In this document: positions 48,201 to 51,200 of the stretch, in pieces
Layout: the number at the start of each line of letters is the position of its first letter
Position numbering within the stretch: position 1 is the first letter of the stretch
Assembly (NCBI RefSeq): GCF_000026545.1
Contig: NC_011601.1
Length of the DNA stretch: 64,000 nucleotides
Reading direction: 5' to 3' (one strand)
DNA from: Escherichia coli O127:H6 str. E2348/69
GTDB lineage: Bacteria > Pseudomonadota > Gammaproteobacteria > Enterobacterales > Enterobacteriaceae
Program-made: the position numbers

Positions 48201-51200
48201 CGGGCCAGCCGCGTTACTCCCTGCGTGTGCGCAACAACGAATTCAACCACGAAAATCTTCAGCTCGGCATCAATGAAGCCCACGCGCTGGGGAAAAAGTT
48301 TTATGTCGTGGTCAACATTGCACCGCACAACGCCAAGCTGAAAACCTTTATCCGTGACCTGAAACCGGTGGTGGAAATGGGGCCGGATGCGCTGATTATG
48401 TCCGATCCAGGGCTGATTATGCTGGTGCGTGAGCACTTCCCGGAAATGCCAATCCACCTCTCGGTACAGGCTAACGCCGTAAACTGGGCGACGGTGAAAT
48501 TCTGGCAGCAAATGGGTCTGACCCGCGTGATCCTCTCTCGCGAACTGTCACTGGAAGAGATTGAAGAGATCCGCAATCAGGTGCCGGATATGGAGATCGA
48601 AATCTTCGTTCACGGCGCGCTGTGCATGGCCTACTCCGGTCGCTGCCTGCTCTCTGGCTATATCAACAAGCGCGACCCGAACCAGGGCACCTGCACCAAC
48701 GCCTGCCGCTGGGAGTATAACGTCCAGGAAGGGAAAGAAGATGACGTCGGCAACATCGTACACAAGTACGAGCCGATTCCGGTGCAAAATGTTGAGCCGA
48801 CGCTGGGTATCGGCGCGCCAACCGACAAAGTGTTTATGATCGAAGAAGCCCAGCGTCCGGGCGAATATATGACCGCGTTTGAAGATGAGCACGGCACTTA
48901 CATCATGAACTCAAAAGATCTGCGCGCCATCGCCCATGTTGAACGCCTGACCAAAATGGGCGTGCATTCGCTGAAAATCGAAGGCCGTACCAAATCTTTC
49001 TACTATTGCGCACGCACCGCGCAGGTTTACCGTAAAGCTATCGATGACGCCGCTGCGGGCAAACCGTTCGATACCAGCCTGCTGGAAACGCTGGAAGGTC
49101 TGGCGCATCGTGGCTATACCGAAGGTTTCCTGCGTCGTCATACCCACGACGATTATCAGAACTACGAATACGGTTATTCGGTTTCTGACCGTCAGCAGTT
49201 TGTTGGTGAGTTTACCGGTGAGCGCAAGGGGGAGCTCGCGGCGGTAGCGGTGAAAAATAAATTCTCCGTTGGCGACAGCCTTGAGCTGATGACGCCGCAA
49301 GGCAACATTAACTTTACCCTTGAGCACATGGAAAACGCCAAAGGTGAAGCAATGCCGGTCGCACCAGGCGATGGTTATACTGTGTGGCTCCCGGTGCCGC
49401 AGGATCTTGAGCTAAATTACGCGCTGCTGATGCGTAATTTCTCCGGGGAAACCACGCGTAACCCCCACGGTAAGTGATTAATTTCGATTATTTTTCCCGG
49501 ATGGAAAATTCTTAGAAACCGATCACATACAGCTGCATTTATTAAGGTTATCATCCGTTTCGCTGAAAAACATAACCCATAAAATGCTAGCTGTACCAGG
49601 AACCACCTCCTTAGCCTGTGTAATCTCCCTTACACGGGCTTATTTTTTATGCATAAGCCCTATCCCTGGTCACCGTCTTCCATTGACCACATCGATAGAA
49701 TCCTCCTTCATAGCACGATGCCTTTTACTTATCGACATCGTACTCGCACAGGTTCCGGTTACGCACAGCCAGAACGCGCATGTTTGACGCTTACCAAAAA
49801 ATATTCTCACTCTCCACATTTGAATGTCAGACGAGCGACGCCATGTAATCCTGCACCTTCTGTCTTCAGGTCAACTATCTGCATTTTTTTGCCCTGAGTA
49901 ACACAGAAATGAGTTGCATCATTTTTTACTATATTTTCTGCACCAGATATTCTACCCCTGGCTAAAGAAGCTTCGGCTTCGGTGTAGTATTGGTTATCGA
50001 GTTTACGCTGAATATTACTTTTATATGCAAGGCCAAAATTACCGATACTTGTCTCATCATTATGCACAGCACAACCAGACATAAGAAAAACACTAATTAA
50101 TGATATAGCAGCTATCTTTTTCACCTTACCTTCCCCCATTAATTACCAACGACATTCTCTAGTGTTTAAATATAATAATGGCATGATTATTATAATTGAA
50201 TAGGATTATAATAAATGTTCTGTACAACATTTCCTACATAAGTAGGAATTACAGACATGGAGGCCCTTCCGGGTAACCCCATGGGGGACTTTAATATATT
50301 TTGAATAGTATATTGAAGATGCCACTGTTTAGTTGAATATTAGGTATATTCTCTTTTTTAAAATTTATCAGTGGCTACCGTTAATATTCGCTGTCCCCAT
50401 TGTAAGCTCCTGGTGGTAAGCACTGAATCCCCATACCTGAACTGACTTTTTATCCTCCGACTTTCATCCTGTTCTGACTCCACCTTTTCTTTTCTGCTCT
50501 ACACTATCTACAGACCAATCATAAAGGCACATACGATCATGGCAGAATTTCCCGCCAGCTTACTGATTCTTAATGGCAAAAGTACTGACAATCTACCCTT
50601 GCGCGAAGCAATTATGCTGTTGCGTGAGGAAGGAATGACGATCCATGTGCGGGTTACCTGGGAGAAAGGTGATGCCGTACGATTTGTAGAGGAGGCCCGG
50701 AAGTTAGGTGTCGCAACAGTGATTGCCGGTGGTGGCGATGGCACCATTAATGAAGTTTCTACGGCATTGATTCAATGTGAGGGGGATGACATACCCGCGC
50801 TGGGAATTTTACCATTAGGAACTGCCAATGATTTTGCCACCAGTGTAGGGATTCCTGAGGCACTGGATAAGGCGCTGAAACTGGCAATTGCCGGTAACGC
50901 CATTGCGATAGATATGGCGCAGGTCAACAAACAAACCTGTTTTATTAATATGGCGACAGGCGGATTTGGGACGCGTATTACCACAGAAACGCCGGAAAAA
51001 TTAAAAGCCGCGCTGGGTGGCGTCTCTTACATCATTCATGGCTTAATGCGCATGGACACTCTGCAACCGGACCGTTGTGAAATCCGCGGTGAAAACTTTC
51101 ACTGGCAAGGTGACGCCCTGGTCATTGGTATTGGTAACGGGCGTCAGGCCGGTGGCGGTCAACAATTGTGCCCGAACGCATTAATTAACGATGGCTTGCT

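What the first reader, a model, noticed from the sequence alone, without database searches (positions are those of the whole stretch)
49478..50538. Unoccupied P2 attachment-site core between yegQ and yegS
A 27-bp sequence matching the phage P2 att core (AAAAAATAAGCCCGTGTAAGGGAGATT, on the minus strand at 49612..49638) lies in a 1-kb intergenic stretch containing only a small lipoprotein ORF. In K-12 this position holds a cryptic P2 remnant (ogrK, yegZ), as I recall. The site appears available for P2-like phage integration here.
Basis: partly seen in the sequence, partly recalled or inferred. Interest (0 to 1): 0.5.

Follow-up and report, generated by a model that had tools for sequence, protein, structure and literature searches.

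The report
Empty P2 phage site at cyaR
The 27-base sequence is real and is the long-known chromosomal docking site of phage P2, which is also the terminator of the small regulatory RNA gene cyaR. It holds no prophage here, as in about three quarters of E. coli genomes, so the finding is correct but ordinary.

Summary
The exact 27-mer is present once, at 49622..49648 (not 49612..49638), and is identical to the annotated attP core of phage P2. The window is E. coli E2348/69. It comprises the terminator loop, the 3' stem arm and the U-tract. No prophage and no K-12-type ogrK/D' remnant lies between the core and yegR.

This empty state is the norm. 4206 of 5426 complete E. coli genomes have it, 358 carry the K-12-type remnant, and about 850 are broken exactly at the core. 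One of these was examined in full and holds a complete P2-like prophage flanked by two perfect cores. That ryeE is a phage target is already published.

One addition seems new. The "empty" flank is probably itself a fossil. An 809-bp segment (49649..50457, carrying yegR) begins exactly at the core edge and is absent from a divergent Escherichia genome and from 63 other Enterobacterales species. It opens with a copy of the P2 Int P-arm site and ends with a decayed second core. E. albertii carries a cdtABC island with clear P2-type attL and attR at the same place.

The parts
48116..49477 (+). yegQ (trhP), the left-hand core gene of the locus
   Evidence: ORF list; RefSeq annotation of the identical E2348/69 record; present upstream of cyaR in 116 of 120 Enterobacterales loci.
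49512..49554 (+). cyaR promoter region: CRP-like site TTAGA-N6-TCACA (49512..49527, centred about -42 from the start) and -10 hexamer TATCAT (49549..49554)
   Evidence: Read from the sequence. The 84 nt upstream plus cyaR are 171/171 identical to K-12. CRP dependence is taken from the literature cited in PMC3333887 and was not tested here. The generic sigma-70 scan did not call this promoter.
49562..49648 (+). cyaR (ryeE) sRNA gene, 87 nt
   Evidence: Rfam RF00112 match at 49560..49645, 100.7 bits against a gathering score of 47, full model length. The 5' end is placed on GCTGAAAAAC by identity with K-12. The 5' end itself comes from my own knowledge of the K-12 transcript.
49613..49648 (+). 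CyaR intrinsic terminator: 11-bp stem (49613..49623 / 49630..49640), 6-nt loop, U-tract 49641..49648
   Evidence: RNA fold. It is the only terminator-like site in 49400..50600. It matches the Rfam consensus structure.
49622..49648 (.). P2 attachment core (attB, 'locI'): the last 2 nt of the 5' stem arm, the loop, the whole 3' arm and the U-tract of the cyaR terminator
   Evidence: Exact single match. It is 27/27 identical to the annotated P2 attP core. The break point of about 850 E. coli genomes falls at 49622. Two perfect copies flank a 32.2-kb P2-like prophage in strain Z0117EC0148.
49649..50457 (.). 809-bp segment specific to E. coli (the 'yegR islet'), proposed fossil of an older P2-like integration
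   Evidence: The divergent Escherichia genome E69 (L112) aligns up to 49648 and resumes at 50458. yegS starts 78-352 nt after cyaR in 63 other species, against 890 nt here. GC is 0.31-0.38 here against 0.52-0.57 in yegQ. No complete E. coli genome has the direct junction.
49666..49695 (.). Relic of a P2-type Int arm-binding site (P arm). One arm repeat, TGTGGTCA, is kept at 49684..49691 (-); the second is degenerate
   Evidence: Local alignment to P2 L003 461..490, where the annotated 'Int P arm' is 463..490: 27 identities in 31 columns, score 38 against 15.7 +/- 2.3 in shuffles, reached by 0 of 2000. The arm consensus tgTGGaCa is from PMC3448106.
49807..50124 (-). yegR, a small predicted lipoprotein (105 aa from the RefSeq GTG start; the ORF extends to 50139)
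   Evidence: The family PF27694 is almost confined to Escherichia/Shigella. It is absent from all 120 cross-species loci. It is not a genuine phage gene among 50,697 phage records.
50397..50451 (.). Putative decayed attR: remains of the P2 core-proximal left arm (50397..50425) and a degenerate second core (50426..50451)
   Evidence: Core copy with 19 of 27 identities and one gap; that score is reached by 27 of 3654 tiles of the window. It is collinear with P2 attP (31/43, p about 0.01-0.03) and with the clear attR of E. albertii (27/37; three-way alignment). It ends 6 nt before CGACTTTCATCC, against 7 nt in E69 and E. albertii. This is suggestive, not proven.
50539..51438 (+). yegS (lipid kinase), the right-hand core gene of the locus

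Best explanation
Window 49622..49648 is the primary chromosomal attachment site of phage P2 (attB, 'locI'), and it is at the same time the 3' end of the CRP-dependent sRNA gene cyaR. The 27 bp are the loop, 3' stem arm and U-tract of the CyaR terminator.

The proposed mechanism is as follows. P2 Int, a tyrosine recombinase, works with IHF bound to the arms of attP to exchange strands inside the 27-bp identity. Because the phage carries an identical copy of the core, attL rebuilds an intact cyaR. The prophage ends up with ogr next to cyaR and int next to yegR.

In this strain (E2348/69) the site holds neither a prophage nor the K-12-type ogrK/D' remnant. It is therefore in the same sequence state as the site from which natural lysogens arose.

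Shown here: core identity, the cyaR overlap, the empty state, natural lysogens at this exact point, and the population frequencies. Taken from established P2 biology or inferred: the recombination chemistry, and usability in this particular strain.

Sub-claim, at about 0.7 confidence: the 809 bp to the right of the core (P-arm relic, yegR, decayed second core) are the remains of a much older P2-like integration. It became fixed in E. coli, so the present attB is the surviving attL of that fossil. Its core was preserved because it is the cyaR terminator.
For: - **Core identity:** there is one exact match, against none in 100 shuffles. It is 27/27 identical to the annotated P2 attP core, and other Peduovirus records carry it too.
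- **cyaR overlap:** Rfam CyaR at 100.7 bits, and the terminator fold and scan coincide with the core.
- **Same gene as K-12:** the cyaR promoter plus gene are 171/171 identical to K-12.
- **Natural lysogen:** strain Z0117EC0148 has two perfect cores 32,215 bp apart, in the order cyaR-core-P arm-ogr ... int-core-yegR. The attB reconstructed from it differs from the window at 12 of 427 positions.
- **Population:** 4206 of 5426 genomes are contiguous across the junction, 358 carry the K-12-type remnant junction, and about 848 are broken, with the listed examples breaking at 49622.
- **Literature:** ryeE is 'previously known to be targeted by phages' (PMC3603311). The attB = attP-core model and the arm consensus are in PMC3448106.
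- **Fossil sub-claim:** the supporting results are.
Against: - No experiment bears on this strain. Receptor, immunity from a resident P2-like prophage elsewhere in E2348/69, and restriction were not examined.
- From my own recollection of the P2 literature, K-12 keeps an intact core yet P2 does not use that site there. An intact core alone therefore does not guarantee use.
- The papers that define locI (Yu et al. 1989; Barreiro and Haggard-Ljungquist 1992) and the CyaR papers are not held in the library. The name 'locI' and the statement that E. coli C has this same flank therefore rest on memory.
- For the fossil, the second core is only 19/27 and individually weak (p about 0.01).
- No Int or Ogr coding relic is left.
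- yegR is not found in genuine phage genomes. Its distant homologues sit in non-P2 contexts.
Confidence: 0.9

Rival explanations
1. The site is sequence-perfect but not usable in this strain. On this reading it functions only as the cyaR terminator, because E2348/69 is not infectable by P2-like phages, is immune to them, or restricts them.
For: Nothing in the window speaks to receptor, immunity or restriction. Only 64 kb of the genome was examined, and no search of the rest of E2348/69 for P2-like prophages was possible (a literature search found nothing). About 77% of E. coli genomes leave the site empty. That is compatible with many strains never being lysogenised.
Against: The site and its flanks are near-identical to those of natural lysogens (12 differences in 427 nt). 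About 16% of complete genomes carry a large insertion starting at the first base of the core. These come from varied hosts: dog, chicken, laboratory strains.
Confidence: 0.2
2. The site is not really unoccupied. The relic flank (the P-arm-like site at 49666..49695) makes it an attL-like site that Int handles poorly, as is reported for the K-12 remnant.
For: A significant homologue of the Int P-arm site lies 18 nt from the core. The K-12 precedent (own knowledge) is that a remnant at this place diverts P2 to secondary sites.
Against: The same relic flank is present at attR of present-day full prophages and in the 4206 'empty' genomes. Integration therefore does happen next to it. The IHF-site region between core and arm is deleted, and the second arm repeat is degenerate. 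The K-12 remnant is a different, much younger 630-bp insertion that is absent here.
Confidence: 0.1
3. This is the rival to the fossil sub-claim. On this reading the yegR segment is ordinary ancestral host DNA that E69 and other genera lost, and the arm-like and core-like similarities are coincidental.
For: The decayed second core and left-arm similarity are individually weak. No phage protein relics remain. yegR is not a phage gene in the phage collection.
Against: The left boundary coincides to the base with the end of the core. The direct cyaR-yegS arrangement is seen in 63 species of many genera, so loss would have to be repeated many times. The P-arm match is strong (0 of 2000 shuffles), lies on the correct side and is in the correct orientation. 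The relic core sits at the homologous offset from the yegS-upstream sequence. E. albertii shows an unambiguous P2-type attL/attR pair at exactly these boundaries. The composition is AT-rich.
Confidence: 0.25
4. The 27-mer is a chance resemblance to the P2 core.
For: None.
Against: The match is 27/27 and extends to 28 nt. There were no matches in 100 shuffles even with 3 mismatches allowed. It is the same locus as the K-12 P2 remnant and as natural P2-like prophages.
Confidence: 0.01

Closest known systems
Phage P2 primary attachment site 'locI' of E. coli C (Yu et al. 1989; Barreiro and Haggard-Ljungquist 1992; cited from memory, papers not held)
   Same: The 27-bp core is identical to attP. 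The position is between yegQ and yegS. The orientation of integrated prophages is the same, with ogr towards cyaR and int towards yegR.
   Different: Nothing found. This is another strain (EPEC E2348/69) carrying the same empty site. I could not read the E. coli C sequence itself.
Cryptic P2 remnant of E. coli K-12 (ogrK plus truncated gene D, 'yegZ')
   Same: It uses the same core and has the same left flank (171/171 identical) and the same right flank beyond the remnant.
   Different: K-12 has 630 extra bp bounded by the core and a partial core (GAACTCTGCTACACGGGCTTATTTTTT). These are absent here. Only 358 of 5426 complete genomes, apparently mostly laboratory K-12 derivatives, have that junction.
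Integration into the 3' ends of small stable RNA genes: tRNA genes (phage 186, HP1), ssrA (Fels-2, SopE-phi), and sdsR/ryeB in Salmonella
   Same: The phage core duplicates the 3' end of an RNA gene, so the gene is rebuilt after integration. A terminator or acceptor-stem hairpin forms part of the core (PMC3448106; PMC3333887; PMC3603311).
   Different: The target here is an Hfq-type sRNA terminator, not a tRNA-like structure. PMC3448106 describes P2-type integrases as usually integrating 'between other genes' and does not mention cyaR.
CyaR/RyeE sRNA family (Rfam RF00112)
   Same: The match covers the full model length, with the conserved seed loop CCACCUCCUU and the terminator loop AAUCUCCCUU. 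The gene lies downstream of yegQ as in Salmonella.
   Different: None. The gene is simply not annotated in the RefSeq records.
cdtABC island of Escherichia albertii at the same site (locus L012)
   Same: It is bounded on the left by the cyaR core and on the right at the same yegS-upstream sequence. It has P2-type IHF/P-arm and left-arm sequences at its two ends.
   Different: It is 3343 bp long and carries cytolethal distending toxin genes (CdtB 364 bits) instead of yegR. Its second core is nearly perfect (25/26), so it is much younger than the E. coli fossil.

Membership tests
Phage P2 chromosomal attachment site (attB, locI) | Core sequence identical to the attP core of P2 | tested here: met
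   27/27 (28 nt contiguous) identity to AF063097 24356..24382, which is annotated attP / Int core.
Phage P2 chromosomal attachment site (attB, locI) | Same chromosomal position as the K-12 P2 remnant (between yegQ and yegS) | tested here: met
   The K-12 record has ogrK and the D' pseudogene directly after the same core in the same gene neighbourhood.
Phage P2 chromosomal attachment site (attB, locI) | P2-like prophages found integrated at this point, flanked by direct repeats of the core | tested here: met
   Strain Z0117EC0148 has two perfect cores 32,215 bp apart around a complete P2-like prophage. About 848 genomes are broken there, and the listed examples break at the first base of the core.
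Phage P2 chromosomal attachment site (attB, locI) | Int/IHF-dependent recombination with attP at this site in this strain | not testable with these tools
   This needs lysogenisation and junction PCR, or an in vitro recombination assay.
Unoccupied state of the site | No prophage genes (ogr, D, int) between the core and the next host gene | tested here: met
   tblastn with P2 Int and Ogr against 49649..50457 gave nothing below E = 6.8. The phage collection matches only the core. The junction is contiguous as in 4206 other genomes.
   A homologue of the P2 Int P-arm site lies at 49666..49695.
CyaR/RyeE sRNA (RF00112) | Covariance-model score above the gathering threshold over the full model | tested here: met
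   100.7 bits against 47, model positions 1-85 of 85.
CyaR/RyeE sRNA (RF00112) | Rho-independent terminator hairpin followed by a U-tract | tested here: met
   11-bp stem, 6-nt loop, then TATTTTTT.
CyaR/RyeE sRNA (RF00112) | CRP-dependent promoter | tested here: inconclusive
   TTAGA-N6-TCACA is centred about 42 nt upstream of the start, and the promoter is identical to K-12. No binding or expression data exist, and the generic sigma-70 scan does not call it.
CyaR/RyeE sRNA (RF00112) | Expression and Hfq binding | not testable with these tools
   Reported for Salmonella CyaR (PMC2515195); not testable for this strain.
Decayed prophage remnant bounded by attL and attR (fossil reading of 49649..50457) | Segment absent from relatives, with its boundary at the att core | tested here: met
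   E69 aligns up to 49648 and resumes at 50458. In 63 other species cyaR and yegS are directly adjacent.
Decayed prophage remnant bounded by attL and attR (fossil reading of 49649..50457) | Phage arm-type sequence on the inner side of attL | tested here: met
   P-arm homologue with 27/31 identities, reached by 0 of 2000 shuffles. The 8 nt directly after the core resemble the P2-like sequence aYgcRtaa.
Decayed prophage remnant bounded by attL and attR (fossil reading of 49649..50457) | Second copy of the core at the other end | tested here: inconclusive
   19 of 27 identities at 50426..50451, a score reached by 0.7% of tiles. It lies at the homologous offset from the host flank.
Decayed prophage remnant bounded by attL and attR (fossil reading of 49649..50457) | Recognisable phage genes inside | tested here: not met
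   No Int or Ogr relics. yegR occurs only in two phage records that include host flank. The phrog_21109 hit probably has the same origin.

The most novel reading that the evidence does not exclude
The canonical 'empty' P2 attachment site of E. coli is itself the surviving attL of an ancient P2-like element. That element inserted at the cyaR terminator before E. coli diversified and decayed to 809 bp. It left yegR, one Int arm repeat and a worn-out second core. Because the arm relic lies 18 nt from the core, every modern P2 lysogen at this site has an attR with arm-type sequence on both sides. This could influence Int/Cox-dependent excision or site preference.
Probability: 0.65. Interest if true: 0.35.

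Novelty: already known. Interest (0 to 1): 0.2.

Why it matters
As a scan finding it is a correct identification of a textbook site, and it tells us little that is new. P2's preferred attB has been known for decades, and ryeE/cyaR is cited in the literature as a phage target (PMC3603311).

Three practical points follow.
- The locus should be annotated as cyaR, which RefSeq leaves out.
- Anyone engineering or deleting this 'intergenic' region, or using it as a landing pad for P2 Int, would hit an sRNA terminator.
- The cross-species comparison shows the cyaR 3' end to be a recurrent entry point for foreign DNA in Enterobacterales. E. coli has yegR there, E. albertii has cdtABC, and Citrobacter, Enterobacter and Buttiauxella have P2-like prophages or remnants.

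If the fossil reading is right, it gives a clean example of an att site being kept alive by selection on an overlapping RNA gene while the rest of the element decays.

Tried and rejected
- **Chance match:** rejected.
- **K-12-type remnant hidden in the flank:** rejected. There are no Ogr or Int relics and the 630-bp K-12 insertion is absent.
- **yegR as P2 cargo:** not supported. tblastn against 50,697 phage records found yegR only in two records that include host flank. The strong PHROG hit is therefore not evidence of phage origin. Divergent YegR homologues lie in an IS-rich region of an Enterobacter genome and in a non-phage chromosomal context.
- **The 82-aa ORF at 49649..49897 (+):** it is annotated 'hypothetical' in one phage record but has no family match and is treated as spurious.
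- **Similarity left of the main core:** comparing the window's left flank with the P2 left arm gave nothing, as expected for a host flank (control).
- **Direct cyaR-yegS junction in E. coli proper:** none found among 5426 genomes. The single long hit is a two-piece match with a shortened segment.
- **Literature:** the papers defining locI and describing CyaR (PMC206120, PMC2620814) are not held. Searches for an explicit statement of the cyaR/P2-core overlap found only the sentence in PMC3603311. A search for P2-like prophages of E2348/69 found nothing.
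Full report
**1. Observation**

The 27-mer AAAAAATAAGCCCGTGTAAGGGAGATT occurs once in the window, on the minus strand at 49622..49648. None of 100 dinucleotide-preserving shuffles gave a match, even with three mismatches allowed.

The interval between the yegQ stop (49477) and the yegS start (50539) is as described. The window is 100% identical over 2 kb to E. coli E2348/69, NZ_CP059840.2, reverse strand.

**2. Identity with P2**

The P2 genome record AF063097 annotates 24356..24382 as 'attP' and as the Int core-binding site. The window matches it 27/27, and the identity extends to 28 nt. Other Peduovirus records carry the same core.

In K-12 MG1655 the same core is followed by ogrK, a truncated gene-D pseudogene and a partial second core. 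Together these form a 630-bp insertion relative to the window.

**3.

Rfam places the sRNA CyaR/RyeE at 49560..49645 (+) with 100.7 bits against a gathering score of 47, over the full model. By identity with K-12 the gene is 49562..49648, 87 nt.

Its terminator is an 11-bp stem (49613..49623 / 49630..49640) with a 6-nt loop and a U-tract ending at 49648. The P2 core is thus the last two bases of the 5' arm, the loop, the whole 3' arm and the U-tract. Its right end is the 3' end of the gene.

The upstream sequence carries TTAGA-N6-TCACA about 42 nt before the start, and TATCAT as the -10 element. It is 171/171 identical to K-12. CRP control is taken from the literature. RefSeq does not annotate the gene.

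**4. How it works**

From established P2 biology (PMC3448106), Int binds the core and two arm sites in attP, and attB equals the attP core. Strand exchange inside the 27-bp identity gives attL (cyaR 5' part, core, P arm, ogr) and attR (int, P' arm, core, host flank).

This is visible in a natural lysogen, strain Z0117EC0148. It has two perfect cores 32,215 bp apart around a complete P2-like prophage. Its cyaR is intact at attL, and the window's right flank is present at attR. The attB reconstructed from that lysogen differs from the window at 12 of 427 positions.

The recombination chemistry, and usability in E2348/69 itself, are inferred rather than shown.

**5. How common the empty state is**

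| State of the site | Genomes (of 5426) | Source |
|---|---|---|
| Contiguous across a 141-nt query spanning cyaR, core and right flank (empty) | 4206 | |
| K-12-type remnant junction | 358 | |
| Split when tested with a 2-kb query | about 848 | |

The split genomes that were listed break at window 49622, the first base of the core. The empty site is therefore the majority state and is unremarkable.

That ryeE is a phage target is stated in PMC3603311, citing Wassarman et al. 2001.

**6. The flank is not plain host DNA**

Eighteen bases to the right of the core, 49666..49695 aligns to P2 L003 461..490, where the record annotates the Int P arm at 463..490. There are 27 identities in 31 columns. 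The score is 38, against 15.7 +/- 2.3 in shuffles, and 0 of 2000 shuffles reach it.

One arm repeat (TGTGGTCA; consensus tgTGGaCa) is retained, and the second is degenerate. The IHF-site region that lies between core and arm in P2 is missing.

**7. Cross-species comparison**

I scanned one genome per species for the conserved cyaR motifs.

- yegQ lies upstream in 116 of them.
- yegS starts 78-352 nt after cyaR in 63 of them, against 890 nt in the window.
- A divergent Escherichia genome (strain E69, yegS 87% identical) aligns to the window up to 49648 and resumes at 50458.
- No complete E. coli genome has that direct junction.

The 809 bp at 49649..50457 therefore look like an insertion that starts exactly at the core edge and is fixed in E. 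coli. The segment is AT-rich. Its only gene, yegR, is absent from all 120 loci, and its family is almost confined to Escherichia/Shigella.

**8. The right end of the segment**

At 50426..50451 there is a degenerate core copy with 19 of 27 identities and one gap. That score is reached by 0.7% of tiles of the window. It is preceded by weak collinear similarity to the P2 core-proximal left arm. It ends 6 nt before the yegS-upstream sequence CGACTTTCATCC, against 7 nt in E69.

E. albertii supplies a younger example at the same boundaries. It has a 3343-bp island with cdtABC (CdtB 364 bits). That island is flanked by a cyaR core with P2-type IHF/P-arm sequence, and by a 25/26 second core preceded by P2 left-arm sequence with 81 identities in 96 columns to P2.

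Several Citrobacter, Enterobacter and Buttiauxella genomes also show P2-type arm sequence after their own cyaR terminator variants, and some of them encode Ogr or Int homologues downstream.

I read this as follows. The cyaR 3' end is a recurrent P2-type integration point, and the E. coli 'empty' site is the attL of an old, decayed element. I put confidence in this at about 0.65-0.7.

Three things count against it. No phage coding relics remain. yegR is not in genuine phage genomes. Its distant homologues sit in unrelated contexts.

**9. Verdict**

The site is the known P2 attB, which overlaps cyaR, and it is empty here as in most E. coli.

Novelty is 'already known' and interest is low. The fossil reading of the flank is a modest addition that I did not find in the literature available to me.

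Noticed in passing
L012 4957..8299 (Escherichia albertii NBRC 107761): A 3.3-kb island carrying cdtA, cdtB and cdtC (cytolethal distending toxin) sits between cyaR and yegS. It is flanked by a cyaR-core variant with P2-type P-arm sequence and by a 25/26 second core preceded by P2 left-arm sequence. It is a P2-like remnant carrying a toxin at the same att site.
   Followed up: partly
window 49562..49648; also records under hits H61-H100: cyaR is not annotated in the RefSeq records of E2348/69 or of the other E. coli genomes listed ('none' under the match), although Rfam scores it at 100.7 bits.
   Followed up: yes
window 51519..59841: Between yegS and gatR this strain has a HAD hydrolase and a D-arabinitol cluster (dalT-type transporter, xylulokinase, dalD, regulator). 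It also has decayed ribitol-type genes: a frameshifted FGGY kinase, a truncated SDR and a truncated binding-protein gene. The gat operon is present as well. In K-12 and in strain Z0117EC0148 yegS is followed directly by gatR.
   Followed up: no
window 23678..28553: The diguanylate cyclase gene (dgcE/yegE) is split by an IS4-family ISEc13 element (transposase at about 24261..25634). The two halves are annotated as pseudogenes.
   Followed up: no
window 34511..36210: A second ISEc13 copy (34837..36210) lies next to a type I toxin-antitoxin pair: the Ibs toxin ORF and the Sib antisense RNA (Rfam RF00113, 138 bits, 34511..34653).
   Followed up: no
window 3047..3096 (-) and 17659..17697 (-): There are Rfam hits for the algC RNA motif (77 bits) near the O127 O-antigen / colanic-acid junction, and for a JUMPstart element (57 bits) upstream of wza.
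   Followed up: no
L128 27232..31221 (E. coli Z0117EC0148 prophage at the cyaR site): The P2-like prophage occupying this att site carries a retron Ec48-family effector with its reverse transcriptase and a second RNA-directed DNA polymerase. This is defence cargo in the known P2 variable region.
   Followed up: no
L128 3219..3813: That strain also has a ParD/ParE toxin-antitoxin pair inserted between yegP and yegQ. The window has only 146 bp there (47970..48115).
   Followed up: no
L131 6001..6318 (Enterobacter sp. BIDMC 29): A 51%-identical YegR homologue lies in an IS-dense region (IS3, IS110 and Tn3-family transposases) next to an omptin and an MFS transporter. The family appears to move as small accessory cargo.
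   Followed up: partly
hits H33-H36, H47, H128 (E. coli genomes): The yegQ-yegS interval varies further within E. coli. Some genomes have about 170 extra bp, some have IS1 or ISVsa5 insertions, and FDAARGOS_1077 has a shortened segment (about 495 bp between cyaR and the yegS upstream region).
   Followed up: no
ON470606.1 (L006 2501..5348) and phrog_21109: The deposited 'phage' vB_EcoM-720R8 record runs past attR into host DNA (yegR, yegS, gatR). This is probably why yegR has a PHROG family, and it shows how prophage boundary errors feed host genes into phage protein families.
   Followed up: partly
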